Assembly (NCBI GenBank): GCA_964016885.1 | Contig: OZ024746.1 | Coordinates: forward strand, 68,572,001-68,636,000 | Direction: 5' to 3' | DNA: 64,000 bases | Source: Eledone cirrhosa | Lineage: Eukaryota | In this document: piece by piece, positions 3,901 through 53,995 of the stretch | Layout of the letters: each line of letters begins with the position of its first letter | Position numbering within the stretch: the stretch's first letter is position 1 | Position numbers and translations under genes: made by a program | Notes under the pieces: model-generated | Told to the model about the DNA's origin: nothing | Seen by the model: the letters and a program-made list of their open reading frames with translations, nothing else | Databases searched by the model: none

Positions 3901-4065
3901 TGTTAAATTCCAACCACAACACCAAGCAGCTTTGGTTTGTGCCACAAGCCAAAACTGCTTGGCATTGCATCGGGATTTTACATATCTCTATATGCACTCT
4001 ACATCTCCCCATGTATTGAGTACTCATATGATTAGTGGTCACCTCGCTCTCAGCACTGCAGACTC
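3901..4065 (+). mobile_element. Short (TA)n-embedded element with hairpin and conserved tail motif
   Basis: Hairpin ccaagcagctttggtttgtg/cacaagccaaaactgcttgg 3922-3962; cactctac...gtattgagtactc tail similar to 4126-4190 and 53727-53790. Confidence 0.5.
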
Positions 4066-4087
4066 TCTCTCTCTATATATATATATA

Positions 4088-4198
4088 AGGAAAAGAAATC
4101 GAAAATGCTACTCGTTCCTATTACCCACTCTACTACCCTAAGTATTGAGTACTTTGGTGCATTATGGTCCACCTGGTTCCTTACCACATTTCTTTTGT
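4088..4198 (+). mobile_element. Short (TA)n-embedded element (tail fragment of the fold-back class)
   Basis: ccactctactaccctaagtattgagtactttggtgcattatggtccacctgg closely matches 53726-53777; its 5' part resembles the reverse complement of 54088-54110. Confidence 0.6.
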
Positions 4199-4796
4199 TA
4201 TATATATATATATATATATATACGTACATACAGACATACATACATACAAGAGTTGGAACCGGTAGATAGTATCAGCAATGGAAAGAGCAATGCAAACATT
4301 GTTTCCTTGGTCCAATTTGACAAGCTCCACCCCACTTAGTAAGCAAATGAGGTTTGGGATCTTGTTGATTTATCCTCTCTCTATATATATATATATACAT
4401 ATATACATACATACATATGTACATACATATATAATGGCTGCATCTTGATTTCAAGAATTGCCCCCTCTCACACATGAGTGGCACGAACATGACTCTTTAG
4501 CTCTGCCAAGGACTTATATTCCTTTCTGTATATGGTACAGTCATGAACATTACTTCCACTTTGGTTTCCTGTTTTGTTTATGTGAGTTTTCAAATGACAT
4601 TGGAATCCATTGGCTGAGGCACATTGTTTTCTTCACTTCCAACAGGAAGAAATGCCAAAAAGACTATAATCAGCAGCATTTTGTCACACTTCTATGATGG
4701 CTTCTATGCTTTACTGAGGCAAATCTAGTCACACTCGTTGCATTATGACATACATACATATAATACATACATACGAACACATGTACATATATAATC

Positions 4797-4843
<47 letters not shown>

Positions 4844-5073
4844 CACATACATCATCATCATCGTTTAAATGTAAATTATAATGGAATGTCTCAGATAAGA
4901 CTAGGCAGTGGTATTAGGAGGTAAATTTTGAAGGGTTAAAGGAGGTAGGAAAAAACAAGACAAAATCTTATGCATTCACAAGGCAAAGTCAATAAATTAT
5001 AGAGAAAGGATCACAGATCAATTTCTTTCATTTTTGTTCATTTGTTAATTTTTACAATAGAATTATATGGATA

Positions 5074-5596
5074 GCATGGCTTTAGACAGGAATTGTCCCA
5101 CTTGAGGCAAGATTGGTTGGATGACCGTGTCTCGATCATATAGGAGTATCTGACAGGTTTTCTACAGCTGGATGCCCTTCCTAACACCAACCACATTTAC
5201 AGTGTGGAATGGGAGCTTTTTACCGTGTTACCTACAAGACCACATTACAGCGTGGACTGTGTGTTTTTTGTTGTGACGCCTACATGACCTCATTTTGGAC
5301 TGGATGTTGTGGTACCAACATAACTTTATAGAGAAAGGGTGGTGTTGGCGGGAGTGGAAGGATGGAGTAGGGGTAGTGAGCTGGGGTGTAAGTTTGGTTT
5401 GGAGGGGCCGACTGACTGTAGGTTAACTTTGCATGTAAGGAAGGTGGGTCTTCTGTATTACTGCATGGCGCCAAAGATCTCGATCCAGTGACATTGTCTT
5501 GGAGAGGTGCAAGTGTGCAAAGTTAGAATTTATCATGTCCCAGGTTTTTCTGGGTCTACCTACTCCATAACTTCCATCAATCTTGATCGCCCTGCA
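5074..5596 (-). mobile_element. RTE-clade LINE 3' fragment
   Basis: Encodes RAIKIDGSYGVGRPRKTW...DRDLWR (RTE C-terminal GRPR.TW and DR..WR motifs); 3' UTR matches the 18181 and 57261 copies. Confidence 0.9.
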
Positions 5597-5792
5597 TATA
5601 TATATATATGCCAATACAAGAGCAATAATGACGGAGTCATTCTACTCACATGGCTTAAACAGGCTGTTTGCATAATTGCAAATGAATCAAATATTATTAT
5701 AAATATTCAATAAAACTCAGATATACATTTCTTGTATTCAGCCATGTAGAGCAATAAAACTATTTGTTAGTTATATACATACATACACACAC

Positions 5793-5844
<52 letters not shown>

Positions 5845-5849
<5 letters not shown>

Positions 5850-6286
5850 GTAAATTTGTATTCCAATGTTACTAAGTAGTTGCATTGGATGGAGTCAACC
5901 GACGTCGGAGATTGCTCAACGTATAATAAAGTGTGTTTTAAAATCCGGAGAAAATATGGAGAAGAAGTTTTTGAAATTTGAAATGGAAATGCGGGTATAA
6001 AGAATTTATTAGGTAACAATTGTTTCTGTAGTGTATGGGTTACCTATACCTCGCTATTTGAATAATATAAAAATATTATCATAAACCGAAGGTACACTGT
6101 AAGCAGACACACCATGTCGTCAGACCTTTGTATTGGAATGATATGAAAATTACAGTGTACCTTCGGTTTATGATAATATTTTTATATTATTCAAATAGCG
6201 AGGTATAGGTAACCCATACACTATAGAAACAATTGTTACCTAATAAATTCTTTATACCCGCATTTCCATTTCAAAAACTTCTTCTC
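5845..6286 (-). mobile_element. Fold-back element FB1 (~140-bp arms 5959-6102/6150-6286 plus one-sided tail), Penelope-like pLTR derivative
   Basis: Near-perfect inverted repeat flanked by (TA)n; contains a hammerhead motif; unpaired tail 5845-5958. Confidence 0.8.
6011..6127 (-). ncRNA. Type I hammerhead ribozyme motif with ~90-nt stem II
   Basis: Minus strand aggt-CTGACGA-[long stem tggtgtgt/atacacta, gtaccttcg/cgaggtat, ataatat/atattat]-GAAAC-AATT-GTT-acct; cleavage triplet is GUU. Confidence 0.65.
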
Positions 6287-6629
6287 TCTCTCTCTATATA
6301 TATATATATATACATATGTACACACATACACATACATACACATACATACATTCATACATCTATACACATCTATACACATATATACACACACACACACACA
6401 CAGACAGACACACACAAACAAACAAACAAAACCTGGAATGGTCTCAGATGGAACATTGTATAATTGTTGGTCTGCTCCTTAATCAATCTGACCTGGGGCT
6501 GTACACCTTATCTGTACATCTATTTATTTATATATCAATACACCTGTCAATACAATCTGTATTGTGTCTATATTTATAGCTTTGATCTTATTGATGAAAC
6601 AGCCATTGCCTCCTTGGAAATGGTGGAGA

Positions 6630-7030
6630 TCAACAGCAGCAGCATCATCACAACAATCAACATCATCATCATCACATCCATCGCCATCGTGATCACAGCA
6701 TCCATCATCAACAGCAGCATCATCATCATCATCACAACATCCATCATCATCATCACATCCATTGTCATCGTGATCACAGCATCCATCATCATCATCAACA
6801 GCAGCATCGTCATCATCACAGCATCCATCATCGTCATCATCATCATCACATCCATCACCATCGTGATCACAGCATCCATCATCATCAGCATCATCATCAT
6901 CATCATCATCACAGCATCCAACATCATCATCATCATCATCTTCATCATCACACCATCCATCATCATCATCATCATCAATCCATCGCCATTATTATCGTCA
7001 TCATCACAACATCCATCACCACCATCATCA
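6630..7030. repeat. Degenerate (CAT)n-rich repeat with higher-order units
   Basis: catcatcatcacatccat...cgtgatcacagcatcc units recur several times. Confidence 0.9.
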
Positions 7031-7435
7031 TCATCACCACCATCACAACCACTAGCCCCAACACCACCATCACAACCACTACCCCCAACACCACCATCAC
7101 AACCACTACCCCCAACACCACCATCACAACCACTACCCCCAACACCACCATCACAACCACTACCCCCAACACCACCATCACAACCACTACCCCCAACACC
7201 ACCATCACAACCACTACCCCCAACACCACCATCACAACCACTACCCCCAACACCACCAGCACAACCACTACCCCCAACCCCACCATCACAACCACTACCC
7301 CCAACACCACCATCACAACCACTACCCTCAACACCACCATCACAACCACTACCCCCAACACCACCATCACAACCACTACCCCCAACACCACCAGCACAAC
7401 CACTACCCCAACCACTACCCCCAACACCACCACTA
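7030..7435. repeat. 27-bp minisatellite, ~14 units
   Basis: Unit ccactacccccaacaccaccatcacaa. Confidence 0.95.
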
Positions 7436-7769
7436 CTCCCCACCTCCGCCATCACCATCACCATATCTTCATGACGTCCACCACTCCATCAGCACACAAC
7501 CACCACCACCATCATCACCACCACCACTAGTGATCTTCACCTGTCAGACATGTTGCTAATGAGGAACATAAACAAACAGCAAGCACTGCTTGTCTAAGTG
7601 GTATTAATGCAAAGACACAAACACATGGAGACAAACTTTCATATATACACATAGGTACACATACACACATACATACTCCAACCTATGACAACATAGTAAA
7701 CAGATGTGTGGTGGTGGTGGTGGTGGTGGTGGTGGTGATGATGATGACGGAGGAGGAGGATATACACAC

Positions 7770-11160: not shown

Positions 11161-11885
11161 GTGTATTTTTTTCTTTATTAACAACAGTTAACCCCTTCAT
11201 GACTCTATTTCAATTAATTTATGAGGAAATTTGAGAGATTTATTAAAATGATTAATTATTTCATTGTTAAGATAGTAACTTAATACATGGTTCTAATATG
11301 TGTAGCATACAGGCTTTAGCCACTGCAGATCTTCTGCACTCAGTGTCCTTGTCTCACTGATATGTAGCATAGCAGTTTACACACAAATATTAGATAATTT
11401 ATCCTTCATTCTGACACTAAGTGACAATTGCCCATGTGTTTGAAAGACAAACTTATTAATACTATAACTATGCCTGTGCCATCTTTGTTGTTTTCATAGC
11501 AGTTTAAACTCTTTCAATATCAATCCATATGGAAATACCTTCACCTCCATAATACAAAACTATCTGTTTTACAATGTTCATATTCGAATTAAAACTTTCT
11601 CTCATAGTTTTATTTCACAAATACTAGTTTAATAATGACAAACCTAGTTAATTTATTAAAAATCTCAAAATTGTCAATTATTTTCAAAATTAATTGAAAC
11701 ACATAAGCAGAGAATTTCATAAGATCACATGTATGTATGAAGGGGCATGGTTTAGTGGTTAGAGTGTTTAGCTTGTGATCAGTGATTATAAGGTCACATG
11801 TTTGATTCCTGGATCAGGCAGATGCTTTATTTCACATTGCTCCAGTCAACTCAGCAGGCAAAAATAAGTTGTACCTATAATTCAA

Positions 11886-12213
11886 GGCACATGGCTTAGT
11901 GGTTAGAGCATTGGCTTTGCAATCGAAAGGTTGTAAGTTCAATTCTCAGTCCGGGTGATGTGTTGTTTCCTTGAGCAAGACACTTTATTTCACGTTGCTC
12001 CAGTTTACTCAGCTGTAGAAATGAGATGATAGGGACTGGGGTCCATATCATTCCACTGCAAAGTGGTTGTGGAGGTACCACGGCAAAAAAGCACCCAGCA
12101 CTCACTGTAAATGAGGTTGGTGTTAGGAAGGGCATCCAGCTGTAGAAATCAAGCCAGAATCAGTTCCCCTCCCACCCTTGCAAGCAGGGAAAAGCGGACG
12201 TAAAATGATGATG
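11886..12213 (+). mobile_element. tRNA-derived SINE family B (~335 bp) with RTE-type 3' tail
   Basis: A box tggcttagtgg, B-box-like aagttcaattc, gttggtgttaggaagggcatccagctgtagaaa shared with the RTE 3' UTR, (GAT)n tail; older diverged heads at 11743 and 9135. Confidence 0.92.
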
Positions 12214-12237
12214 ATATATATATATATATATATATAT

Positions 12238-12523
12238 CCAGGGAGTGTAACGTGCAGTTACTGTAGATGAGCACTCGGTGTTTAAATTCACGTCTGTAAT
12301 GAGGTGTAGAGCTAAATAGTGTGTAAATATAATAATACAAGGACAATTTGTTATGTCACTACGTTTATTGATATGTCATTACCACGGCAGAGGTCTGATG
12401 AGGTTTTGATTCCAGAGTCAGGCCAGATGGATATGGATCGAACCATGAGCTGATCAATAGTTAAACGCGCATCACCTATCAATAAACGTAATGAAGACAT
12501 AACAAATCGTCTTTGTTATTATA
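12238..12523. mobile_element. Fold-back element FB2 (arms ~12329-12373/12477-12523, tail 12238-12328)
   Basis: Imperfect inverted repeat between (TA)n tracts; hammerhead in loop followed by AATAAA. Confidence 0.7.
12391..12477 (+). ncRNA. Degenerate type I hammerhead with bulged, extended stem II
   Basis: aggt-CTGATGA-ggttttgat-tc-cagag-tcaggcc...gctga-tcaatagt-TAAAC-GCGC-ATC-acct (GAAA changed to TAAA, GTC to ATC). Confidence 0.6.
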
Positions 12524-12524
12524 C

Positions 12525-12581: not shown

Positions 12582-13085
12582 CACAAATTATTGTTAAATA
12601 GAATATAATGTGGGTCATTGGCTCATTAAGCTAATATTGGCACCTGAAATAAAACTTTAGTGAAAGTAATTGGTTTGTCCCTTCTGCCACACACTAGCTG
12701 ATGAATGAAAACTAACTGAAGTATAAAATTAAGAAAATATTCTGATATATCTAGATGTCTATAATTTAAAAATAACATGAGCAGGTTCCAGGCAGAATGC
12801 CATTTGGCAGTTATGAGGAAAATTTGCCTGAGAGGAACTGATTAACTGATTTTTTCTATACTTTTGGACAGGATTTTCTTCTTATTGATTCAGGACATAG
12901 ATTCTGTGTGTGTGCAATGTTGATATCCATAACAATTTCCCTTAAGTTTCATTTTAGCAAGGCTAACTTAAATATTTTCTATTAGCAATATGACTTAAAT
13001 CAGGCATGGGCAGCATTTTTCTAGCAGTGAGCCTATGAGATAAATCTGGTCATATGCTACTAAAGAAAAATAATTTTATATAATA

Positions 13086-13268
13086 ATTGTTTCTATTTTG
13101 GGCACAAGGCCAGCAATTACGCAGTGCATTACTGGTACTTTATTTTATCAACCCCGTAAGGATGAAAGGCAAAGGTAACCTCGACGGGATTTGATCTCAG
13201 ACCGTAAAGGGACGTAACTATGCTAGAAAGCATGGTGTCCAACACTCTACCAATACTGCCAATCCACT
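13086..13268 (-). mobile_element. SINE family A
   Basis: Near full-length match to the family A consensus. Confidence 0.9.
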
Positions 13269-14962: not shown

Positions 14963-15270
14963 CACACAACACACACACACATATTTATATACACACACAT
15001 ATATATATATATACACATATATATATACACACATACATATATATATATACACATATATATATACACACATACATATATATATATATACACATATATATAT
15101 ATATACACATATATATATATATACACATACATATATATATATCTACACATATATATATATACATATACACACACACACACATATATATATATACACACAA
15201 CACACACACACACATATATATATATACACATATATATATACACACATACATATATATATATATACACATC
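14915..15270. repeat. Compound (AT)n/(AC)n microsatellite
   Basis: Directly visible. Confidence 0.95.
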
Positions 15271-15721
15271 ACACACTTACACCTCTCCAAGACAATGTCA
15301 CTGGACCGAGACCTTTGGCGCTACTCAGTAACAGAGAAGACCCGCCTTGCCAGTAGGCATCTCTAACAAAATACACCCCGTCCCGCCACCACCCCCACTC
15401 CATCCACACCACCCCGTTCTATGTAAAGTTATGTTGGTGCCGCGCCATCCAGGCCGAAACAAATGAGATCGTGTAGGTGTCACGACAAAAAAACACACAG
15501 TCCATGCTGTAATGTGGCCGTGTAGGCAACACGGTAAAAACCTCCCAGACCCACACTGTAAATGTGGTTGGTGTTAGGAAGGGCATCCAACTGTAGAAAA
15601 CCTGCCAGACAGTCCTATGCGAGCAAGACAATCACTCTTGCCTCAAGTGGGACTACCCCCATCCAAACCCATGCAAGCGTGGAACACGGACGTTAAACGT
15701 TGATGATGATGATGATGATGA
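15271..15721 (+). mobile_element. RTE LINE 3' fragment with (GAT)n tail
   Basis: [17 protein letters not shown] plus 3' UTR matching the 18181 copy. Confidence 0.9.
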
Positions 15722-16084
15722 TATATACACACATACATATATATATATATACACATTCATATACACATATATATACACACACACACATATACACATATAC
15801 ATATACACACACACATATATACACACACACATATATATACACACACACACATATATATATACACACACACACATATATATACACACACACACATATATAT
15901 ATACACACACACATACACACACACACACACATATATATATACACACACATACATACATATATACACACACATATATATATATATACACACACACATACAT
16001 ATATACACACATATATATATATATACACACACACACATATATATACACACACATATATATATATACACACACACACACATATAT

Positions 16085-17578: not shown

Positions 17579-18161
17579 ATATTTATTAAAATAACAGATT
17601 AAAGTTTAAGCAAAGAATCGCTGCTTTGACCCTTAACGGGATCTTCTGAAACTAACAAAGTCAATCTGTGAACGCAGAAGTGAATATTTAAAAAAATTGC
17701 GTGCAATTGTTCTCCCCGCTCCACATATGACGTATTATCTTTGTTCCATTCATTGCCAGAGAACGTCTCTATGAACTACCTAATAGAATATTAGTCTACG
17801 ACTTCTTTCATACCATAAACGTGGTTTTGTCTTTGCATGTAATTGTTTTTCACCGCTCCAAATAATGACGTATTATATTCGTTTTTTCCCGTTCTTTGAC
17901 AGGGAACATTTCCACGAACCAAAGTATCGTCTTCCTGTCTTCCTCCGGTTGCAACGCTTTTTGAAATATTCACTTCTGTGTTCACAGATTAACTTTGTTA
18001 GCTTCAGAAGATCCCGTTAAGGGTAAAAGCAGCGATTCTTTGCTTAAACTTTAATCTGTTATTTTAATAAATATTTGCTCTATGGTTCTTATATATTTGA
18101 TATATATTTATCCTTATCGAGCCCTCTTTGGATTTTAGTCTTCAAATTTATTATTATTACT
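17579..18161 (+). mobile_element. Fold-back element FB3 (~120-bp arms 17579-17705/17958-18074, tail to 18161)
   Basis: atttattaaaataacagattaaagtttaagcaaagaatcgctgc... is inverted at 18030-18073; tail ends in (TA)n; weak hammerhead-like cagaaga-tccc-gttaa-gggt-aaaa in the arm. Confidence 0.75.
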
Positions 18162-18180
18162 ATATATATATATATATTAC

Positions 18181-18781
18181 TCGAGAGAAGACTACGTTGG
18201 TATGGTCATGTGATGCGCATGAAAGACGACAGCTGTATAAAAAAGTACAGGGCGATAAAAATAGACGGTAGCCACAGAGTAGGCAGACCCAGAAAAACCT
18301 GGAACGACTTGATAAATTCTGACCTCACACACTTACACCTCTCCAAGACAATGTCACTGGACCGAGATCTTTGGCGCTACACAGTAATACAGAAGACCCG
18401 CAAAGCGAAACCTAGTCAGTAGGCACCTCTAACAAAAATACACCCCCCGTTCCACTACCCCCCACCCCCATCCACACCACCCCTTACAATGTAAAGTTAT
18501 GTTGATACCACAACATCCAGTCCGAAATAAATGAGGTCGTGTAGGTGTCACGACAAAAAACACACAGTCCACACTGTAATGTGGCCGTGTAGGTAACACA
18601 GTAAAAACCTCCCAGTACACACTGTAAACGTGGTTGGTGTTAGGAAGGGCATCCAGCCGTAGAAAACTCGCCAGACAGTTCTATACGAGCAAGACAACCA
18701 ATCTTGCCTCAAGTGGGAAAATTCCCGTCCAAACCCATGCAAGCGTGGAAAATGGACGTTAAACGATGATGATGATGATGA
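18181..18781 (+). mobile_element. RTE LINE 3' fragment
   Basis: RRLRWYGHVMRM...GRPRKTW...DRDLWR then 3' UTR and (GAT)n tail, set in (TA)n. Confidence 0.93.
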
Positions 18782-18806
18782 TATATATATATATATAATT
18801 TATTAT

Positions 18807-18993
18807 GGTGGATTGGCAGTATTGGTAGAGGGTCGGATGCCATGCTTTGATGCATAGAGTTCTGGCCCTTTCCAATCTGAGTTCAAATCCCTCCGAAGTT
18901 AACTTTGCCTTTCATCCTTACGGGGTCTATAAAATAAAGTACCAGTAATGCACTGGGTAATTGCTGGCCTTGTGCCAAAAGTAGAAACAATTA
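18807..18993 (+). mobile_element. SINE family A
   Basis: Consensus match. Confidence 0.9.
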
Positions 18994-19809
18994 TTTATCA
19001 TTAACATTCATGCATAATTATTTCTTTTTAATTTTACACAAATTTTTTAAGAGAAGGGCCTCATATTTCAAATAGCTTAGGGTCTCAGCAGGTGAAAGTC
19101 TGGCTCTGTGTGTGACCTTGAAATTGAACATATTATGGGAGATAAGAAAAGAAGAGCTAAGTGAGCCAAGAAGTAGTGAGTGGAGTTGACACAAGGCTAG
19201 CCAGCTATAGGGAGCAGAGCTCATTGAAGTTTTGGTACAAAAAACGAGATGAGACAGCATGTTGGTGAACCAGGGATTGAAGTGTGTTTTTGAGAGAGAT
19301 TATGCCAATCTTCGGACTTCTAATTGTGTTCTTCTCATGTTTAAGGAGGGATATGATACTATAATGTACACATATCAAGCCTAGAATATGTACAGAAATT
19401 GTATGTTTTTGATGTTGAAGGAGACAAGCTCAACATGACTCCATAAGGGGAGTTTTTAAGATCTCTGTTCATGGAGTTAATGCAGATTTTATGTGATGTC
19501 TAGGAATACTTAAGCTTGGTTCAGGTAGTGGAGTGCTAAGCCAGCAACATATTAAGTTTACTACACAAGAACAGGCAATGTCCATTTTACAGACTTCCTC
19601 AACAAACTATTTCTTCTTTTCTACATCTTTCAAACAATAAAAAAAAGACATATATATATATATATACATATATACAGAGAGAGAGAGATACACAGACACA
19701 GAAGGTTTGATGACCAGAGATATACAGTGAAACAACAATTATCTTCCCCTTTCATATGTACATGTGTATCTATATATCTATGTGTACATGTGTGTGTGTT
19801 TTTTTTATT

Positions 19810-28693: not shown

Positions 28694-29099
28694 GTAGATA
28701 TGTGTGCAACTGTAGTTACAGGTGGTTCGTTGGTTAAAGCACTCAATACTGTTACACGGTTCCATCTCATGTAGGGGTTATACTTCAGTGTATTCCAGGG
28801 TTAAGTTGGCTGTAATGTGCAGTGTGTACAAGTAGGTAGGAACATAGTCAAGGTTGTACCATAAATGAATTTTATTGTATATGACAATTGTCTCAATATC
28901 GATCAGCCCAGGATTCAATCAAAATGTTCAGGGCCTGACTCTGTACCGACATCTCATCAGATATGCGTTCATAGGTGCAGAACACATTCTAACAGTTAGA
29001 AAGTGTTCTGCACCTACGAACGCATTTGCAATTGATATTGAAACAATTGTCATATACAATAAAGTTCATTTATGGTACAACCTTGACTGTGTTCCTACT

Positions 29100-33983: not shown

Positions 33984-35875
33984 GTTTATGTAAAATATAA
34001 TAATATAGTTTTAGCAAAACATAATATCTATGAGATGGTAGACACTACTGTTCTTGTTGTTTAGGCTTGGGTTAATCCTGATAGACAGAGGATCAAAGAC
34101 GTTCCAATCATGACCATTCTGTCTTTTTTATATATCCAGGGAATACATTGTCTAATATGTAATACATTGTCTAAGATGTAATTTCAGATGGTTAAGTATA
34201 TGATTTTAGAAAGATTTGGCTTGTATTTCTAGCATTTTGGTTGACCACATAGAGGCTAGTACAAACTTGTGTCACTTCAGTTGATAATTTGGCTTCTTAC
34301 CAAATCAGAAAGCTTTGATTCTTAGATTTATATATTGAGTCTATATATATATATTTATTTATACAGATATTCATGTGTATATATAAACTAGACAGATAAC
34401 TATACATATTTGTGCAAACTTGCATGCATTTAGATAAATGTGTGTGTGTGTGTGTGTGTGTGTTCATTTACTTAGTTGAAAATATTCCATTATATTCAGA
34501 TAAAGCACCACATTTATAGTTGGAGTTATGCAAGGCTTCTTTACCAGCTCACCATCCCGATTTCCCCACCACCACCCTCACCAATACCACAAATGATAAA
34601 TACATAGATGTTTTGTATATAACACAATCTAGTACATTACAATAACATCTTTATATCAACTTAACATCCTTAGGAAAATAAATCTTTTAAAAAACTGTAA
34701 ATAATAATAAATAACTTTTCAATGTAAAAACAATTTCCTCCTTGGAGACACAGGAATCCTTGGGATCTTGAAATTTCCCTTAGGGAGGAAATATCCCCAG
34801 GTTAAGAATTGCAAGAATATATACATAATTGATTAATCTTCTTGAGAGAAAACTGCCTGAAACCAACCCTGATTCTATGATACAAAGATGTTTGTTTTAA
34901 AATGTTTATATTTATCTGAAATCCTTCCATTATGATTTTCTACGAATACCCTTGTTAAATTTTATTCTAAACATTAATTTAATAATGTTAATAATGAGAA
35001 AGTTAGTTATATTACTAAATCCCTCCAAATTCTTGTCTATTTTCAATATTAGTTAAAAAATTTAGGCAATGCCTTTCATTAGAAATGAGGTAATGAAAGG
35101 GTTATGTGATATTGTTATTGTTTAGATTTGTGTCAGCTAAGATCAAGCAGATTTATGATCAAAGGCCTTTTAGTCATCCTCATATTGCATTTTCAATTAC
35201 AATATTGTTTTTTTACACACTGCATGATTTTCAACCCTCAGCAATGATGATGGGAAGAGATCAGACTCAATATCTGAATGGCTTCAACACAATTTCAGTC
35301 AACCTATTTCTACTCACAAGGCATAGGTCAACTTGAGTCTATGGTTAAAATAAAATCTTACCCAAGGTGCCAAACTCTGGTATCAAACTTGGAACCTCAT
35401 GATTGTGTAATTTAACATAAGTTGCTTTTGATACCAGTTTAGAATAGGTTCACCAGATCCCTGCATATCGTAAGAAACAACTAAAAGGTTTGGTGCTAGA
35501 AAGGGCATCCATTTGTAATACATGACCTCAAAAAGGACAACATTGATAAGTATGAAGCTTAACATGGGGCCCACAAGGTTAACTCCTGCTTTAGCAAGGA
35601 AAGTAGCCTTAAAATGATTATTTACAATTACCTGCGTAACTATGTGTGTTTACACTCATTACAAATTATCCCCTGTAATTGTTTGATGTGTTTATTTTAT
35701 ATATATAAGTCATTCGACTTTTAATTTAATATGAATGCTCGGATTTACTTCTTGGAATCTTTGAGCTTATTCCACAGGTGGTATAGCGCATGATTCTGAT
35801 ATTCTCAGACATGACATCTTTAATCTAATTTGGGTAGTATATACATATATACATACACACACACACATATATATA

Positions 35876-35985
35876 TGATGATTTCTCATGAATGAAACAG
35901 TTCTAGTCCTGTAGAAGCTTCTCTATATTAAAACATTTATACTCTGCTATGTATTGAATACCTTACTTACTGTGATTAACCTCAA
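35876..35985 (+). mobile_element. Fragment of the FB7 family (one arm plus tail)
   Basis: Matches 53871-53975; tail also at 48790-48852 (minus). Confidence 0.75.
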
Positions 35986-37027: not shown

Positions 37028-37098
37028 TATTTTATTATGCGCATTTCAAAAACAAATATCATCATGGGATGATATTTGCGTTCTCATCAGATAAAATA
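37028..37098 (-). ncRNA. Type I hammerhead (left arm of FB6)
   Basis: tattttat-CTGATGA-gaacgcaaatatcatc-ccat-gatgatatttgttttt-GAAA-TGCGCA-TA-ataaaata. Confidence 0.8.
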
Positions 37099-37120
37099 GG
37101 GAGACATGATATGAAGCTTA

Positions 37121-37335: not shown

Positions 37336-37388
37336 ATTTAACACTTCACTGCTCGCAAGTGTTTTTTAAGCTTCATATCATGTCTCCC

Positions 37389-37459
37389 TATTTTATCTGA
37401 TGAGAACGCAAATATCATCCCATGATGATATTTGTTTTTGAAATGCACATAATAAAATA
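37389..37459 (+). ncRNA. Type I hammerhead (right arm of FB6)
   Basis: Same as the left arm but with GAAA-TGCACA-TA. Confidence 0.78.
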
Positions 37460-37583
37460 CATGGAACTCTTTTAACCATCTTTTGATTTTATATTATTTA
37501 TACTCCAGTCCTATAAACTGTTGAGTGCTACTTATCCGATATTTGCATTGCTTTATTGTACTACAATAAAACTCACCTCCTAC

Positions 37584-37753: not shown

Positions 37754-37943
37754 AGGCGGTGATTGTGAGTATCGGTAGAGGGTCGGATGCCATGCTTTCC
37801 AGCATAGTTATGTCCCTTAACGATCTGAGTTCAAATCCCGCTGAGGTTGACTTTGCCTTTCATCCTTACGGGGTCGATAAAATAAAGTACCAGTAATGCA
37901 CTGGGTAATTGCTGGTCTTGTGCCAAAAAGTAGAAACAATTAT
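37754..37943 (+). mobile_element. SINE family A with TSD
   Basis: ttatgtggaaag on both sides. Confidence 0.92.
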
Positions 37944-39947: not shown

Positions 39948-42334
39948 ACTCTGTGTATGTCTGTGTGCAAGCGCGTGTGTGTTACTGTGTTTACATCACA
40001 TGACTTAATTGTTTCGCAAAGAGAGACCAAGAAAATAAGTACTGGGGTTGATATGATTTAAGGTGGTGCTCCAGCATAGCCACTGTTTAATGACTGAGAT
40101 TAGTAAAAGAATTTATATCTGTAATATTTTTCTTCTTGTGACATGTTTCAGTATTTAACTTTAAACAATCTCAACAATGAAACAAAATCAAAATATTTAA
40201 CATAATGAAATAATGTTATAAATATCTGTAAATTTATGTATCAAAATAGAAATAAAAAGTTACAATTTCCCTTTCCATGGATTCCTCTAGTCAGTATAAA
40301 TTTTGTTTAAACATTTCTCAACAAGCACAGCCTACAGTTACCACGCTACACTATCACTACAATAGCAGTTTCACCAATTATGTCGGGCACCTAGCTAAGA
40401 TAAATCTGTCAATCACTATGTAATGGAACCTCCCCAGATTCTACAGAACTTAGCCTGCTAGTTAGTAAAAAAAAATCTGCCAAATATTCCTCAAAATCAC
40501 ACACTACTGTCTTAAACAGTGTCACAAAATTAGCTAATGAATTGGTATGGAACTGACAGCTCTCCTGTAAAGATGCCAACTACTGAAACCTGACACTAAA
40601 CTTTAAACCTAAACCTCCTGGTATTATGAAATCTTATTATTTATCCTTTAAATCAAAATCTACTTTAACATAATTTCTTGTTGTAATTTTAAAGAACAAT
40701 CTTCAGATTTTTGTTATAAAGTTTTACTTTATTATTTCAGAAGCCATAACAATAACAAAAATGCATTTTTTTTTTTTAATGTTCTACTCGAATGCTAGCA
40801 TAGTCTCATTGCAACTGCAACACCACGAGAAATTTAATTAGTGAAATAACTGAAGAGGCTTTTCTGTCTCTAGTGACCTTCTTCTATTCTTCCAGCAAAA
40901 ATTCCTGTCCATAAACATAAGGTTTCAGCTATGAGTAAATTGTAACTAATCAAACATATATGCATGTAGCTTTCTAAATATATAATTATATTAGTTCTTT
41001 CTGCCAGAACCGATTTACGTTATAACAATTGAATCAGGCAGCAGACATACTTTCTGCACAGTCAGTGTAGTTGTGCTTTCATCAAGAACAAAAGCAAAAA
41101 ATAAAAACCGCAATAACATTCACTATAAAGACTTCTTCCTCCTGATTATATCAATGAAATATCAATAACTGTGTAATCCTCCAAATAACAATTTTTCTTC
41201 GTCAAATTCAATCCTTTTATTTTGATTCATTGACAGTTTCAAAATGGCTGCTTGTAATGTTATAGGGGGTTCATGTATAAACAGTCCATTTTGTTAAACA
41301 AAGCTTTATAATTTTGTTTGACTAAGGTAGAAAATCCTTACATCTAAGTATCTATTGTTGCTGTCAGTCATAATAGCTGACACTATAGTCTGCATTCATG
41401 AGAAATACATAGAAATTATCTAAGTTTATCTTTTCTATTCAAAGATGAAGATAGAAATCTGATTAGAAAAGATTAGAATATATAAATTCTAAAGTTAGGA
41501 ACAACTTTCCAAAAGACCATCACAGAAAGGTGTAATGTTTTGCACACTGAATATATAAACTGAAATAAAAATAAATGCTTCCATTCTGCATTTGTAATAA
41601 GTAATCCAAAATTTTCAATAATATGAATATCTATTTATAAATGATCCAGTGGTTATACTATAAAAGGGATAAATATTTAGCATAGAAGCCTGTAAATATT
41701 GACTGCAGGCATGGCTGTGAATACAGAAAGTTTGCAGTGCAGCTATGTGGCTTCAAGTTAAATCACACACACTGTACAGCACATTGAACAAATGTCTTAT
41801 ATCAGGTTGACCAAAGCCTCATGATTTGAGAAAAGTTTGATACATGGAACTTCTATAGAACTCAACCAAAAGACTGTTCCTATTCTTGAGTACTAGACTT
41901 AATTTGTCCCCCAGTTATATATCATAACTTGGTTCTGTGGGATATTTAGCATAAAAGCCTGCAACAGTTATAAAAGTAACAGAAAACATTATAGCATAAC
42001 TATAACACTGCACCAGAGATGTAGTGGGATACAGGCAGGCAGGCTAACAAAGAAGGAGTGTGTATGAAGAAGATACACAGGAGTAGTAACAGAGGTGAGT
42101 ATTTTGAAAGCAAAGTAGCCAGATGGAGAATGGTGTAGAAACAGTTCAATTTGTTATTACCTCTGCTAACAACATATCGATTCTTTAACATATTGATTCT
42201 TTCTCCAAGTGAAGGACAGATTGTACGATGCTTATGTATGAATTTCAATACTGTATGATAGTAAAACATGGATATTGAATGCAGAGGTTGTGTAAAGGGT
42301 GGAAAGAAATGAGGTTAGTATGATAATATGATAA

Positions 42335-42581
42335 TAATTGTTTCTACTTTAGGCACAAGGCCAGCAATTACCCAGTGCATTACTGGTACTTTATTTTATC
42401 GACCCCGTAAGGATGAAAGGCAAAGTCAACCTCGGCGGGATTTGAACTCAGATCGTAAAGGGACGTAACTATGCTGGAAAGCATGGCGTCCGACCCTCCA
42501 CTGATACTGCCAATCCACCGCCCTGTATGATAATAATGAAATTATTGTGTACAGTACTCAGGTGCACTACAGCTCATCAAG
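42335..42581 (-). mobile_element. SINE family A (42335-42523) next to CR1/L2 tail fragment
   Basis: Near-consensus copy, tatgataataat TSD; 42528-42581 matches the CR1 3' end. Confidence 0.9.
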
Positions 42582-46733: not shown

Positions 46734-47025
46734 TATATATATATAACCAAATTAAAAGATATAGAGAGAGAAAGAACCATATATCATAGAAGAAACACAG
46801 TATATTGTATATATATATACCAAATACATATTCTATAGAAGAATATGTACACAGATGGAATCATAAATGAAACCTTATAACGCTATTTCATACCTGGAAA
46901 GTGTAGCTAAAAGTATTATGGCTCTAGATAAAATCTATTGAGCTTACTTATTGAGGAACACAAAATTCTAAACGTTTGATATGTTTTGATTGATCATTTG
47001 TGTGTGTATATATATATATATATAT

Positions 47026-47130
47026 TTATTAAAATAACAGATTAAAGTTTAAGCAAAGAATCGCTCTTTCACCCTTATATATTTATCCTTATCGAGCCCT
47101 CTTGGGATTTTAGTCTTCAAATTTATTATT
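47026..47130 (+). mobile_element. Internally deleted copy of FB3
   Basis: Left ~50 bp matches 17581-17634; right part matches 18102-18158. Confidence 0.85.
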
Positions 47131-47136
47131 ATTATT

Positions 47137-47325
47137 AGCGGTGGATTGGCAGTATCGGTAGAGGGTCAGACACCATGCTTTCCAGCATAGTTACGTCCCT
47201 TTACGATCTGAGTTCAAATCCCGCCGAGGTTGACTTTGCCTTTCATCCTTACGGGGTCGATAAAATAAAGTACCAGTAATGCACTGGGTAATTGCTGGCT
47301 TTGTACCTAAAGTAGAAACAATTAT
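47137..47325 (+). mobile_element. SINE family A
   Basis: Consensus match; inserted in the (TTA)n end of the previous element. Confidence 0.92.
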
Positions 47326-47771
47326 TACTATATATATATATTTCGGTATTGATTACTCATTCTCACATCTGTTAATATCACACAGACATATATATATATA
47401 TATATATATAACAAACTTCTGCACTGATAAGGCTTTGGTTTATTTGTAGTTATTGTAGAAGATACCTGCATAAGTTTGATTAACAACCAGAATCACACGG
47501 TTCTTAATCAAAACTTTCTAAACACATGTCCATGCCTGCACATCCATTTAAGATTGTTTGTTTATCTATCCAGAAAATCTTGCTCAGGACAAAAATAGTA
47601 TTTTAAAATGATTTTATGGTTTAGTCGGGGGAGAAATAGCAGTGCCATGTCCTTTTTCAAGGCCCTTGAGACTAACAGAAGAAAGACCTTGCTTGAATAC
47701 TGGCAACAGAGTGGACATCACCAAAGACACCTAAGGGCTTATATATTTATTTATTCAATTAATCAATTTAA

Positions 47772-48410: not shown

Positions 48411-48733
48411 TCATCATTCATCATCATTTCATTTTACGTTCACTTTTCCCTGCTTGCAAGAGTGGGACGGGAACTGATTCTGGCTTGATTTCTACAGCTG
48501 GATGCCCTTCCTAACACCAACCTCATTTACAGTGAGTGCTGGGTGCTTTTTTGCCGTGGCACCTCCACGACCACTTTGCAGTGGAATGATATGGACCCCA
48601 GTCCCTACCATCATTTCTACAGCTGAGTAAACTGGAGCAATGTGAAATAAAGTGTCTTGATCAAGGAAACAACACATCACCCGGTCTGAGAATTGAACTC
48701 ACAACCTTTCGATTGCAAGGCCATGTGCCTCCA
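48411..48733 (-). mobile_element. SINE family B with head deletion
   Basis: Same deletion and same 5' flank as the 36679 copy. Confidence 0.92.
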
Positions 48734-48852
48734 TATTATATATATATATAAATGAAATATATATATATATATATATATATTAAAAATTTATTACGGGTTC
48801 AATCGAGGTTAATCACAGTAAGTAAGGTATTCAATACATAGCAGAGTATAAA

Positions 48853-50465: not shown

Positions 50466-51997
50466 TTCTTGAGAATGTATAGTAACATGCTGTTATCTTA
50501 CTAGGTGGGTACCCATAAAAAGAAAAGTACAGAAAAATACTAGAAATAGCAATGAAATACACTCAATTACATCTTACCTAACCTAAAAGTTAAGATAGGG
50601 CTTCATTGCCAATCTACTAATCGAAAGAATCTAAGAAGAAAAATTAATCATTTCTAAATAATCATAAAATCACAGGTTAAGATTAGTTGATTAAACCAAT
50701 CCTTGTACTTAACAAGTTTTTTATTTTATCAACTCCAAACAAATGAAAAGTAAAGTTGACATTGGCAGGATTTCACCCACTTCTGAACGTAATGAACTAT
50801 AAGTAAATAACATAAGCTATTTTGTTGAATGTTCTAATGATTCTATCAAGTCAACAACAATAGCAACAACTCCACACATTGAAAAAGAATCTAAATATTC
50901 AAGACATAATACTCGTATATTTTTAATGTCAAATTTTCAGGCTGTAAATTTTTTTGCCAGGTAATCTTAAATGTTTAAAATATTGCATTTTTAATTCTGC
51001 TTAAAAACATAATTTATTTCCTCTTTCTTAAATATCAGTAAAGAATTGAGAATCGATTGATATGAAATTTAAAAAAATATAAATAAATAAGATAAAATAA
51101 AATGAAAAATATATTTCTTTTATTCAAGAGATATCTTGCAATATAAAAAAACTATTGAGAAATAATGGTACAGGGTGGGGAAGACATGGTGGAAAAGTTA
51201 AATGACAGTAGAGAAAATTTTAGGAAGAAGCAATTTTTCTTGTCTGTCTGTGCTGGTTTAGAAACTGACCTAACTTTACGATACTGTCAGTGCAGTAACA
51301 TCATGTTGGTTTACACTTTTCATACACTCCTTAGACATCACAGCATGCTTCTTAACTGTTCTAAGTAGTTGCATCATCCTCTAAAGAACAATGTATTTCT
51401 ACAGGCAGCATCATGTTTTTATAATGGCCTATATATTTAAAATGCTGAGTTGCTACCATCGTAAGTGCAAATTTCATAGAGATTTCCAAACATGAGTGGT
51501 AGCATGGAATAAAGAATCTGTAATTCTAAAATGTAACTAGATAGATAAACAAATAAATAAAGTTTATTTTATTTGTTATAAATAGTGCATTGCATGTAAA
51601 AACAGTGTAAAAGGTTTATAGACTTCCAGCAGTTTCAACGACGAGTACTCCAGTTGTTTGATTGATGGTACAGTCTACTCATTAATCTAATGTGTTAGTG
51701 AATAAGTTATTCCACAGACACATGTACACTTAACACAATTCTCAGGGCAATTCAATGTGACATAACATGTGACAATGCTAACCCTTCGAATTACAGATAC
51801 AATCCACTTGACAGGCTTCCAAACAGTTTCTGTCTACCCAATTTCAGACACAAGACTTGTGTCAACACAAAGTTATGGTAAAAGAGACTTACCCATGGAA
51901 TTGAAACCATACCCTCATGATTGTGAAGTAAACCTTTTAACCATTCAGTTTTGCTACCTCCAATAAACACTATGCTATAGAAGGTGAGCTGTTGCAA

Positions 51998-52314
51998 TAT
52001 ATATATATAAATGTGAGCAGCTTCCATCCGTCACACAGTGTGTGTGTGTGTGTGTGTGTAAATGGAAGGAAGCGGGTGGTGAAAAAACCATAGCAAAACA
52101 GCAGCTGGCGTTCCATTTGCTATGCTGTGTATGAGTGAATGTGTATGTGTGTATTTGTGTGAATGTATGTCTGTGAGTGTGTATTTTTGTAAGTGTGCCT
52201 GTGTTTGCACATTTATATTTATATACTCATACATATAAATGTGTGCATATGCACATACACACATACACACATGCACACACATATACATCAGCGTGTTGAA
52301 AAAAATTCTATTAG
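51998..52314 (+). mobile_element. Second copy of the Helitron-like repeat
   Basis: Aligns end to end with 14208-14554; subterminal hairpin tcagc-gt-gttga. Confidence 0.55.
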
Positions 52315-52930
52315 TTTAAAATTCCAGCTGCTGTAACTACTACAACAGTTGTCACTTACAATTGAGCATGACTTAGTAGTATGTACTATGCTTTTGCTAG
52401 GGGTTTTAGATGTCCATACAATAACCAGCAGACACACTTTTGGCACTCTCTTCCTTGATTCAGTGGAACATTCAGGATGTGACAGCTAGAACAAGGAGGG
52501 TACTTTTTTTATCGACCCTTAAAGGATGAAAGGCAAAGTGGACCTTGGCAGGATTTGAACACAGAACAGAGAGACAGGGAACAAATACCCAATGCTCTAA
52601 TGACTCTGCCAGTTGTTGGAATTTAACATTTCATTATATTGCTAAATTAGACAACAAAAGAGCAAGCTTCTATGCTATCACTCAACTTACTAAAGATAGT
52701 ACCACAAACTCACTCATGCCTCATCTTATTATCATCATCATCATCATTTTACATCCACTTTTCCATGCAAGCAGGGTTTGAGAGAAATGTTTTGAGATGT
52801 CCCTTTTCTGATGCCAACCCTTTTAATCTTCCTATACAACATATAGGGACATAGTCTTAAAAAAGCCATGAAGGAGACATTGAACAATGTAGTCCTGGAT
52901 ATAGTTCTAAAAATAAGATGTGTTGATCAT

Positions 52931-53383
52931 AATAATAATATAATAATAATAATATAATAATAATGAAATTATTGTGTAAAGTGCTCAGGTGCACTACAAC
53001 TCGTCAAAGGTGTATGTATTGTACATAGAATAATACACAAATGTCAGGGAAGTGAATAGTGTATGAGTCATGGTATACATGTGTGTATGTGTATGGAGGG
53101 GGAACATCAGGTGTAGTGTTGGCGGATCTCGGGAAGCATGGAGGCCTTAAAGGATGCAGTGTCTCGACAGCTAACAACCGATGCAGGTAGTTTGTTCCAT
53201 GGAGGCCTTAAAGGATGCAGTGTCTCGACAGCTAACAACCGATGCAGGTAGTTTGTTCCATGGAGGTTTTAAAGGATGCAGTGTCTCAACAGCTAACAAC
53301 CGATGCAGGTAGTTTGTTCCATGCTTCAGCAACTCTGAGCGTGAATGAAATTATTGTGTACAGTGCTCAGGTGCACTACAACT
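52931..53383 (-). mobile_element. CR1/L2-group LINE 3' end with internal 60-bp triplication and second tail fragment
   Basis: TLRVAEAWNKLPASVVSC...; atggaggccttaaaggatgcagtgtctcgacagctaacaaccgatgcaggtagtttgttcc x3. Confidence 0.85.
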
Positions 53384-53664
53384 GGTTGGAATATTTCTTG
53401 ATAGGTCTAAGCAACAATAACTTACATTGTTTTAAGCTAATAGGGAGCCTCTATGTGGTTTCTGAACTTACTAGGAATAACAAACAAATACCCTCAATTA
53501 CACCTTGTCATTTTCAAAAAGGAAAGGACACATTAGATAATGCAGTCCAAGATACCCATTAAGGCAGGATGGTCACAGCTGGACTGTCATTCACCATGGG
53601 TCTGCTTGGACTAGACTGACATGGAACTTGAACAACAAGAACAACAACAGAAATATATATATAT

Positions 53665-53790
53665 ATGAAAAGATTCAAGATCCCCCTCGGCTGAGCTCCG
53701 GCCGTTTCAACAACTTTCATATTATCCACTCTACTACCCCAAGTATCGAGTACTCTGGTGGGTTATGGTCCACCTGGTATCTTACCACAC
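53665..53790 (+). mobile_element. (TA)n-embedded tail fragment of the fold-back class
   Basis: Matches 4126-4190; contains gtatcgagtactc. Confidence 0.6.
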
Positions 53791-53810
53791 CCTCTCTGAT
53801 ATATATATAT

Positions 53811-53995
53811 AAATGGCTTCTACAGGACTAGAACTGTTTCATTCGGTAGAAATCATCTGGAGGCCCCTGTTGATTTCTACCAAATGAAACAGTTCTAGTC
53901 CTGTAGAAGCCATTTCTATATTAAATATGTATACTCTGCTATGTATTGAGTACCTTCCTTACTGTGGTTAGCCCCGATTGAACCCAGGATAAACA
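53811..53995 (+). mobile_element. Fold-back element FB7 (45-bp arms 53811-53855/53871-53915 plus tail)
   Basis: Inverted repeat between (TA)n tracts; degenerate ctgttga...gaaacagtt core; gtattgagtac in tail. Confidence 0.75.

What the first reader, a model, noticed from the sequence alone, without database searches (positions are those of the whole stretch)
4013..53956. Conserved RTATYGAGTRC-like motif in the unpaired 3' tails of unrelated elements
A similar motif recurs roughly 30-80 nt before the element end or (TA)n junction, on the tail-ward strand: gtattgagtactc (4013 +), gtattgagtactt (4142 +), acgttgagcaatc (5920-5932 -), caccgagtgctc (12269-12280 -), ttatcgagccctc (18114 +, 47089 +), gtattgagtgctt (28737-28749 -), gtattgaatacctt (35951 +, ~48825-48838 -), ctgttgagtgcta (37518 +), gtatcgagtactc (53743 +), gtattgagtacctt (53943 +). 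Some of these are copies of one family, so independent instances number about 7. It is a candidate cis-signal for the mobilising RT/endonuclease or for 3' end formation (inference).
Basis: seen in the sequence. Interest (0 to 1): 0.72.

Follow-up and report, generated by a model that had tools for sequence, protein, structure and literature searches.

The report
Conserved bulged hairpin in Penelope-like tails
The recurring motif is one side of a small bulged hairpin kept in the tails of Penelope-like jumping genes here and in coral and sea-cucumber relatives, and it is a good but untested candidate for the handle by which their enzyme grips its own RNA.

Summary
All 12 quoted sites exist (two coordinates off). 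As plain sequence the motif is significant only when exact (5 hits, 0.33 expected). It is really the 3' strand of a hairpin, 5'-RCUC-[stem-loop]-UY-GAGY-3'. This hairpin forms at 7 of 24 YYGAGY cores near a (TA)n tract and 0 of 110 elsewhere. Paired bases covary, and the structure search found two new sites, 35763 and 46940. The carriers are not unrelated: they are ends of Penelope-like elements (PLEs), with inverted arm, hammerhead remnants, unpaired tail and (TA)n flanks; no ORF survives. By eye, 3 of 6 published autonomous Hydra-clade consensi (coral, sea cucumber) carry the same hairpin, about 30-40 nt after the hammerhead or at the 5' UTR start; 0 of 47 Naiad 3' ends do. It lies between the two insertion ends. 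Best reading (inferred, about 0.5): the RNA element that the PLE protein binds and that positions its two priming sites; its bulge has the layout of the TAR/7SK arginine sandwich. The strand (RNA or cDNA) is not settled. I did not find it in the literature searched.

The parts
3996..4021 (+). Bulged hairpin (outer 4 bp, UU bulge at 4016-4017, inner 5 bp); element 3893-4073 with inverted arms ending at about 3993
   Evidence: in wider context a competing downstream pairing is predicted
4127..4150 (+). Bulged hairpin (UU bulge, inner 4 bp); short element 4089-4198, same family as 53728
53728..53751 (+). Bulged hairpin (UC bulge, inner 4 bp); element 53667-53798, followed by two further small hairpins
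   Evidence: pair probabilities 0.84-0.93
53933..53951 (+). Bulged hairpin (UU bulge, short inner stem with a G-U pair); element 53812-53994, inverted repeat 53805-53921 with hammerhead-like core at 53867
   Evidence: the minimum-energy fold keeps only the outer stem
35941..35959 (+). Same family as 53933; variant with a C-A mismatch in the outer stem; element 35877-35983, cut by a neighbouring element
48829..48847 (-). Same variant as 35941; 5'-truncated copy ending at (TA)n 48780
37502..37526 (+). Bulged hairpin with compensatory inner stem; element 36992-37583
37389..37459 (+). Type I hammerhead ribozyme motif (intact core, 8-bp stem I, palindromic stem III), 43 nt before the hairpin; mirror copy with core at 37090 on the minus strand
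18077..18122 (+). Bulged hairpin with G-C outer pair, UC bulge and long interrupted inner stem; element 17579-18150, inverted arms 17579-17695 and 17958-18074
   Evidence: outer pair probabilities 0.94; relaxed hit only, 2 contiguous inner pairs
47019..47125 (+). Second copy of the 18077 family: the inverted arm (47019-47077) starts at the same short end, while the direct arm begins inside the hairpin loop, so the arms do not overlap
5914..5951 (-). Degenerate hairpin (3 of 4 outer pairs, one inner mismatch); element 5846-6286 with inverted repeat 5959-6286
   Evidence: not favoured in the fold
12273..12312 (-). Core with CC bulge and outer partner but no inner stem; element 12238-12524, hammerhead-like core at 12395 in the inverted arm
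28739..28749 (-). Exact sequence motif without a clear 5' partner; element 28694-29103 with hammerhead-like motif 28877-28966 (by eye)
35737..35766 (+). New site, not in the finding: bulged hairpin (G-C outer pair, UU bulge, inner 6 bp with two G-U); element about 35709-35837 between TA-rich tracts
   Evidence: z -2.29
46921..46943 (+). New site, not in the finding: bulged hairpin (G-C outer pair, UU bulge, inner 5 bp); element about 46820-46996 between (TA)n tracts
   Evidence: z -2.44

Best explanation
The elements are 5'-truncated insertions of hammerhead-bearing, (TA)n-targeting Penelope-like retrotransposons, probably of the Hydra clade. The motif is the 3' strand of a bulged RNA hairpin that lies just after the hammerhead, at the start of the next tandem unit's 5' UTR, that is, inside the 'tail'. 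Shown: the hairpin, its covariation, its position and its presence in autonomous Hydra consensi. Inferred: the PLE protein binds this hairpin, nicks both strands of a (TA)n tract and primes two cDNAs. One starts about 40-75 nt 3' of the bulge and gives the direct arm with its tail. The other starts 3-16 nt 5' of the hairpin foot, often at an AUAU box that could anneal to the nicked target, and gives the inverted arm. The two cDNAs are then joined. More speculative: the U-led bulge before the G-C and A-U pairs forms a U:A-U triple that takes an arginine, as in TAR and 7SK.
For: Hairpin at 7 of 24 near-(TA)n cores against 0 of 110 far cores, Fisher p 2.6e-6, 1.5e-5 after removing a family duplicate. 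Compensatory changes at the outer pair (A-U/G-C) and inner pairs 1-4, with CUC/GAG fixed and span 12-39 nt. Two new sites found by structure. By eye, 4 intact copies in 3 of 6 Hydra consensi: Hydra-2_Amil and Hydra-2_Ajap 3' ends, and two at the 5' start of Hydra-1_Ajap, all with different inner stems. The inverted arm ends 3-16 nt before the hairpin foot in the 6 of 6 elements with both a long inverted repeat and an assignable foot. Non-overlapping arms at 47019-47125 imply two separately primed cDNAs. ATAT or TATA within 20 nt before the foot in 9 of 11 copies, background 18% (36% in AT-rich windows; P 0.012 for 7 of 9 families; post hoc). A Poseidon PLE protein cuts and extends both strands and starts at two internal RNA sites that bracket the tail (PMC11167929).
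Against: No binding or activity was tested. No PLE ORF remnant lies in the window, so the clade rests on non-coding features. The strand is undecided: the antisense folds as well or better in 5 of 8 hairpins, and G-U against C-A positions do not clearly favour the sense strand. Two copies of one family (35941, 48829) share a C-A mismatch in the outer stem and so probably moved with it. Three of 8 families lack a clean hairpin (5910, 12269, 28749), and 18114 passes only the relaxed test. Whole tails are no more stable than shuffles (z 0.12, -0.99, -0.53). Three other inverted-repeat-plus-tail elements (1-204, 27575-28393, 35984-36633) show no convincing hairpin. At 28749 and 46940 the arm ends lie about 92 and 72 nt away. 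Hydra-1_Obim shows none at either end, Hydra-1_Amil only the core, Hydra-1_Crog a variant with an AG bulge. In Poseidon, priming is reported at sites not homologous to the cut DNA, against the AUAU annealing step. I first saw the pairing in Hydra-2_Amil, so that copy is not an independent test.
Confidence: 0.5

Rival explanations
1. The hairpin acts in single-stranded or extruded DNA (cDNA or element DNA) as a site for the GIY-YIG endonuclease, which cuts beside it and so sets the short end.
For: The antisense strand folds as well or better in 5 of 8 cases. The D. virilis Penelope endonuclease needed the tail sequence on plasmid DNA (as cited in PMC11167929). Ssn GIY-YIG nucleases bind ssDNA hairpins by sequence and structure and cut a few nt upstream (PMC11893778 passages). 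Craig et al. ascribe the tail to endonuclease resolution.
Against: Poseidon tail ends match RT start sites on RNA in vitro. At 47019-47125 the direct arm lacks the 5' half of the hairpin, yet the inverted arm starts at the usual end. G-U pairs occur on the sense strand in several families.
Confidence: 0.15
2. The hairpin is a 5' UTR element for translation or stability of the uncapped RNA left by hammerhead cleavage; the insertion ends are set by something else, such as the AUAU box.
For: In Hydra-1_Ajap two copies lie between the unit start and the ATG at nt 115 (by eye). Type I hammerheads in 5' UTRs promote cap-independent translation in viruses (PMC13725137 passages). The hairpin was not seen in 47 Naiad 3' ends, and Naiads lack canonical hammerheads.
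Against: It does not explain why both insertion ends keep near-fixed distances from the hairpin while its span varies from 12 to 39 nt.
Confidence: 0.13
3. The hairpin is an accessory part of the minimal hammerhead, supplying a tertiary contact or a folding switch for cleavage.
For: It lies about 30-43 nt after the hammerhead in the window and in Hydra consensi. PLE hammerheads are weak on their own (PMC4209133) and protein-assisted. The GAGY strand has alternative downstream partners in some copies.
Against: Hammerhead stems II and III vary widely while the bulge stays fixed. Hammerhead mutants do not affect Poseidon insertion in vitro.
Confidence: 0.07
4. It is a double-stranded DNA promoter or transcription-factor site of the internal PLE promoter, and the pairing is incidental.
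For: Penelope and a Chlamys element have internal promoters at the pLTR/5' UTR boundary. The core often extends to a near-palindrome GAGnnCTC.
Against: Compensatory changes in the stems and variable spacing are not expected of a double-stranded site.
Confidence: 0.06
5. Chance or neutral inheritance: a pattern picked after the fact in related AT-rich repeats.
For: The sequence motif alone fails multiple-test correction and is not enriched at two mismatches. The descriptor was written after seeing the sites.
Against: 0 of 110 far cores form the hairpin. Downstream tails of most families are barely alignable, yet the paired positions are kept in the window's organism, coral and sea cucumber.
Confidence: 0.04

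Closest known systems
Hydra-clade Penelope-like elements (Craig et al. 2021, PMC8557442)
   Same: (TA)n targets, type I hammerhead near the 3' end with palindromic stem III, inverted 5'-truncated copy plus one-sided tail, and the same bulged hairpin in 3 of 6 supplied consensi.
   Different: No ORF in the window to confirm the clade. Tails here are 74-142 nt against the 30-40 bp described. The paper's main text has 0 occurrences of 'hairpin' or 'bulge'.
Poseidon PAc tail and internal RT initiation (Frangieh et al. 2024, PMC11167929)
   Same: Two RT start sites bracket the tail, both target strands are cut and extended, AT-rich target, and a protein-binding region inferred downstream of the hammerhead.
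   Different: A different clade. The binding motif was not defined beyond ORF positions +20 to +172. Its sequence file could not be read here, so whether Poseidon has this hairpin is unchecked.
3' tail stem-loop of stringent LINEs and SINEs (eel UnaL2, PMC1636434)
   Same: A conserved hairpin near the inserted 3' end whose bulge is needed for retrotransposition (abstract).
   Different: There the bulge is a single C with a U-U mismatch in a LINE. Here it is a 2-nt U-led bulge lying between two insertion ends and inside the next unit's 5' UTR.
Hepadnaviral epsilon (PMC1885660)
   Same: A conserved stem-loop at the RNA 5' end bound by the RT to start synthesis (abstract).
   Different: Epsilon primes in its own loop with a protein primer (recalled); here insertions point to target-primed starts on either side of the hairpin.
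Arginine sandwich motif of HIV TAR and 7SK (PMC6189040)
   Same: Paired purine, then a pyrimidine bulge led by U, then G-C, A-U and G-C pairs (A22, U23:A27-U38, G26, G28-C37 in the passages).
   Different: The closing loop lies on the opposite side of the bulge. No triple or arginine contact is shown here, and so short a layout can recur by convergence.

Membership tests
EN+ Penelope-like elements | ORF with telomerase-like RT and GIY-YIG endonuclease | tested here: inconclusive
   No motif remnant in six frames; 0 relevant Pfam hits in 92 frames submitted, 87 of them from the 111 listed. Only non-coding ends are present.
EN+ Penelope-like elements | Type I hammerhead with short palindromic stem III near the element end | tested here: met
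   Complete motifs with cores at 37397 (+), 37090 (-), 36313 (-) (the relaxed descriptor gives 1-7 chance hits per simulated window, these three have intact cores and 7-8 bp stem I). Partial or degenerate ones by eye at 53867, 35877, 28960, 12395. Rfam listed none among the 150 of 201 matches shown.
EN+ Penelope-like elements | Inverted 5'-truncated copy next to a direct copy with a one-sided tail | tested here: met
   Long inverted repeats with a one-sided tail at 4013, 5910, 12269, 18114, 28749, 37518, 53943; only short, weak matches at 4142, 53743, 35763, 35951, 46940.
EN+ Penelope-like elements | Tail of 30-40 bp | tested here: not met
   Tails are 74-142 nt from arm end to (TA)n (coordinates). 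The source calls this length typical, not obligatory.
Hydra clade | RWK and DKT motifs, C-terminal endonuclease without CCHH | not testable with these tools
   No ORF in the window.
Hydra clade | Insertion into (TA)n | tested here: met
   10 of 12 quoted sites and both new sites end at TA tracts. Neptune and Naiad elements share this preference, so it does not single out Hydra.
Hydra clade | Same bulged hairpin as in autonomous Hydra consensi (my criterion, not a published one) | tested here: met
   Intact in 3 of 6 consensi, variant in 1, core only in 1, absent in 1 (by eye). Neptune, Nematis and Poseidon ends were not available, so exclusivity is unknown.
Naiad clade | No canonical hammerhead; hairpin shared with Naiad ends | tested here: not met
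   Carriers have hammerhead motifs. 0 of 47 Naiad 3' ends (of 54 consensi) show the hairpin by eye, 1 near match with a 1-nt bulge, Naiad-1_Dst; their 5' starts were only glanced at.
Non-LTR retrozymes | Head-to-tail tandem repeats of 150-450 bp, each with a canonical hammerhead | tested here: not met
   No tandem array holds a hammerhead; definition.
Helitrons | 3' end CTRR a few nt after a terminal hairpin (recalled) | tested here: not met
   Element ends are heterogeneous, with a CTRR-T junction readable in only 2 of the ends shown (5910, 53743; by eye).
Arginine sandwich motif (TAR, 7SK ASM3) | Pyrimidine bulge after a Watson-Crick pair, followed by G-C and A-U pairs | tested here: met
   First bulge base U in 11 of 12 copies tabulated, G-C and A-U pairs in 12 of 12 (the table required TC in the partner); definition.
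Arginine sandwich motif (TAR, 7SK ASM3) | U:A-U base triple and intercalated arginine | not testable with these tools
   Needs NMR, a crystal structure or binding assays.

The most novel reading that the evidence does not exclude
Hydra-clade PLEs, whose RT is sister to telomerase, carry a TAR-like arginine-sandwich hairpin conserved across cnidarians, echinoderms and this organism. It is the docking site of a dimeric RT-endonuclease and measures out both priming sites, so the inverted-repeat-plus-tail form of PLE insertions comes from programmed twin priming around one RNA element.
Probability: 0.2. Interest if true: 0.85.

Novelty: new variant of a known kind. Interest (0 to 1): 0.63.

Why it matters
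How a Penelope-like element recognises its own RNA, and why its insertions end at two fixed places, is open: the one in vitro study I found narrowed the binding region to about 150 nt without naming a motif, and Craig et al. name the inverted/tandem structure as unexplained. A 20-45 nt hairpin with fixed bulge chemistry and natural compensatory variants turns this into a few point mutations in an existing type of assay. It also offers a marker for finding and orienting ORF-less PLE ends, which automated pipelines often leave as 'unknown'. Cis-acting RT-binding hairpins are known in LINEs and hepadnaviruses, so the kind is not new; its presence and form in PLEs appear to be.

Tried and rejected
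Rfam: the 150 of 201 matches shown were microsatellite look-alikes of miRNA models plus SINE-head tRNA hits; no hammerhead or matching family among them. ARAGORN found 0 genes. Protein route: no PLE motif and no relevant Pfam hit, so protein, structure and locus searches were not used. MAFFT did not align the hairpins in register because loops differ, so no covariance model was built; pairs were tabulated by script (which stopped after 12 of 15 sites because 28749 has no partner of the required form; 58729 and 47089 were therefore not tabulated). Sense-against-antisense folding did not decide the strand. The linear consensus at two mismatches is uninformative. A repeat family at 1432, 13300, 25381, 42561, 52988 and 53370 holds a similar core but lies 750-2850 nt from (TA)n and forms no hairpin, so it was rejected. 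Four strict hits with non-pyrimidine bulges lie 429-2929 nt from (TA)n and were treated as chance (about 5 strict hits expected per window); one of them (9241) has a U-led bulge. A downstream alternative partner for GAGY is predicted in 4013 and 12269 but is not conserved. Helitron, retrozyme and Naiad identities were considered and not met. The Poseidon tail stayed unchecked: its sequence file is unreadable here, and supplements 2 and 3 held only labels and run lists; supplement 1 was not opened. The Terminon paper is not held.

Full report
Setting. The window is 34% G+C, full of (TA)n and other microsatellites, with no long ordinary ORF. Its repeat landscape looks like an octopus-type mollusc genome; that label is my recall and was not tested.

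The observation. All 12 quoted strings are present; two coordinates are off by 10 and 1 nt. The exact consensus occurs 5 times against 0.33 expected, each 41-50 nt before a (TA)n tract, although only 15% of positions lie within 110 nt of one. The looser matches carry no weight alone: 88 hits at two mismatches against 116 expected. A blind k-mer test on 87 clusters of (TA)n flanks ranks TATTGAG first (6 of 87, nominal p 2.1e-5), but this does not survive correction for all 7-mers. As a linear motif the finding is real but thin.

What carries it. Most sites lie in an element of one build: (TA)n, an inverted arm, a direct arm, an unpaired tail of 74-142 nt, (TA)n. A complete type I hammerhead motif with a palindromic stem III lies at 37389-37459, with its mirror copy at 37090. 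Degenerate ones are visible by eye at 53867, 35877, 28960 and 12395. This is the published form of PLE insertions: an inverted 5'-truncated copy beside the pLTR with a one-sided tail (PMC8557442), and minimal hammerheads in pLTRs (PMC4209133). The hammerhead arms of 12269 and 28749 are homologous (85.5 against a shuffle maximum of 57). The elements are therefore diverged relatives, not unrelated. No ORF remnant was found.

The motif is half of a hairpin. A search of the Craig et al. supplement returned the 3' end of the coral consensus Hydra-2_Amil with the motif about 30 nt from its end. There I saw that it pairs with an upstream RCUC across a 2-nt bulge. A descriptor for this (RCTC, at least 3 inner pairs, 2-nt bulge, GAGY) gives 11 hits in the window. 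The 7 with a pyrimidine bulge all lie 47-104 nt before (TA)n, against about 1 expected in simulated sequence; the 4 others lie 429-2929 nt away. Two of the 7, at 35763 and 46940, were not in the finding. Of 134 YYGAGY cores, 7 of 24 near (TA)n and 0 of 110 far from it form the hairpin (p 2.6e-6). The outer pair switches between A-U and G-C, inner pairs 1-4 change on both sides, the CUC/GAG pairs and the first bulge U stay fixed, and the span runs from 12 to 39 nt. Not all fit: 5910 has two mismatches, 12269 no inner stem, 28749 no clear partner, and the 35951/48837 pair share a C-A mismatch. The isolated hairpins have z-scores of -1.3 to -2.7, but whole tails are no more stable than shuffles.

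Autonomous relatives (by eye). Of the 6 Hydra-clade consensi supplied, Hydra-2_Amil (coral) and Hydra-2_Ajap (sea cucumber) have the intact hairpin 39 and 31 nt after the hammerhead and about 30 nt before the end. Hydra-1_Ajap ends 40 nt after its hammerhead, before the hairpin position, but begins with two copies (nt 3-25 and 64-85) ahead of the ATG at 115. All four have different inner stems, with bulges UU, UA, UA and UC. This places the hairpin at the start of the 5' UTR, so the tail is the beginning of the next tandem unit. Hydra-1_Crog (copepod) has a variant with an AG bulge and one mismatch, Hydra-1_Amil only the core, and Hydra-1_Obim none at either end. Of 47 Naiad 3' ends seen (of 54), none had it and one came near. 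Neptune, Nematis and Poseidon were not available.

Position relative to the insertion ends. In the 6 elements with a long inverted repeat and an assignable hairpin foot, the inverted arm stops 3-16 nt before the foot. The direct arm stops 39-75 nt after the core G. Exceptions are 28749 and 46940 (about 92 and 72 nt). An ATAT or TATA word precedes the foot in 9 of 11 copies (background 18%, or 36% in AT-rich windows; P 0.012 for 7 of 9 families; post hoc). At 47019-47125 the inverted arm begins at the family's usual short end while the direct arm begins inside the hairpin loop, so the arms share no sequence. A fold-back of one cDNA cannot give this; two separately primed cDNAs can. That matches the in vitro behaviour of a Poseidon protein, which cuts and extends both target strands, starts at two internal RNA sites bracketing the tail, and is predicted to be a dimer (PMC11167929). 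The likeness to L1 twin priming is recalled, not from a call.

Mechanism. I infer that the protein binds the hairpin in the RNA and that this places the two priming sites (about 0.5). The local layout, a paired purine, a U-led bulge, then G-C, A-U and G-C pairs, equals the arginine sandwich of TAR and 7SK as described in PMC6189040, with the loop on the other side; the triple and an arginine contact are untested. Hydra proteins have an N-terminal RWK motif, which is only a lead. The main rivals are a DNA hairpin read by the GIY-YIG nuclease, since the antisense strand folds as well or better in 5 of 8 cases and such nucleases exist; a 5' UTR translation element; a hammerhead accessory; and a promoter site. 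Three other inverted-repeat-plus-tail elements in the window show no convincing hairpin, so it is not universal to such insertions.

Literature. Six searches listed no paper on such a hairpin; one search was for the arginine sandwich. Seen: PMC11167929 parts 1-2 of 4 and supplements 2-3; PMC8557442 parts 1-4 and 6 of 10, a term search (0 'hairpin', 0 'bulge') and parts of its supplement; PMC4209133 parts 1-2 of 4; preprint 10.64898/2026.07.22.740005 part 1 of 5 and a term search (0 'hairpin', 'stem', 'tail'); PMC13282606 parts 1-2 of 3; passages of PMC7229834, PMC6189040, PMC11893778 and PMC13725137; abstracts of PMC1636434 and PMC1885660. Pyatkov 2004 and Schostak 2008 were seen only as cited. 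Subscription papers, Repbase notes, figure images (such as the Poseidon RNA fold in Fig. S2C) and preprint supplements were not seen and could mention the element.

Verdict. The PLE anatomy is known. The conserved bulged hairpin is real, better supported than the linear motif, shared with autonomous Hydra-clade elements of other phyla, and not found in what I searched. Its function is inferred. New variant of a known kind; interest 0.63.

Noticed in passing
window 11885-12240, 27221-27578, 36688-36997, 48420-48723, 58279-58610, 60955-61306, 62093-62426: A SINE family of about 330-360 bp with a tRNA-like head (Rfam tRNA 31.2 bits at 28614-28671), 91-96% alike, usually abutting (TA)n; it may share the (TA)n niche with the PLE ends.
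   Followed up: no
window 430-1013, 13077-13267, 18800-18995, 24473-24664, 33792-33985, 37755-37943, 42332-42545, 47128-47338: A second repeat family of about 190 bp, partly in tandem (197-bp period at 611-1013).
   Followed up: no
window 5072-5596, 15266-15727, 18177-18796, 57245-57874: Copies of a LINE-like 3' fragment; frame 18048-18422 holds a peptide that looks like an RTE-type ORF end (label recalled; no Pfam hit).
   Followed up: partly
window 36037-36633: Near-perfect palindrome whose arms (177 nt at 100%) include microsatellites; holds a complete hammerhead motif at 36276-36320 (-) about 240 nt from the arm end, and a short tail without the hairpin. Very recent insertion or assembly artefact.
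   Followed up: partly
window 1-204 and 27575-28393: Inverted repeat plus one-sided tail ending at (TA)n but without the hairpin; 1-204 has a lone hammerhead half-core at 183 near its end, as noted for some Naiads. Possibly another PLE clade.
   Followed up: partly
window 12395-12470 (+) and 28877-28966 (-): Two related hammerhead-like motifs with an unusually long, interrupted stem II.
   Followed up: partly
window 4018, 53748, 12276, 18119, 47094: The core extends to a near-palindrome GAGnnCTC in 5 of 15 sites listed and in the three sea-cucumber copies; it could allow strand exchange or RNA dimerisation. Unexplained.
   Followed up: partly
window tails after the motif, e.g. 53754-53798, 37551-37570, 5846-5911: A second hairpin of variable sequence, often followed by a C/A-rich run, precedes the (TA)n junction in most tails; it recalls the AC-rich stem-loop where the Poseidon RT starts, but is weak in some copies.
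   Followed up: partly
window 58719-58729 (-) and 47346-47356 (+): One-mismatch matches 85 and 31 nt before (TA)n without a complete hairpin; possibly decayed or truncated tails.
   Followed up: partly
window 37121-37333: Five copies of a 43-bp unit at the centre of the 36992-37495 inverted repeat, where the two arms join.
   Followed up: no
window 6464-7559: (CAT)n run and a 27-bp array giving long low-complexity frames on both strands; probably not a gene.
   Followed up: no
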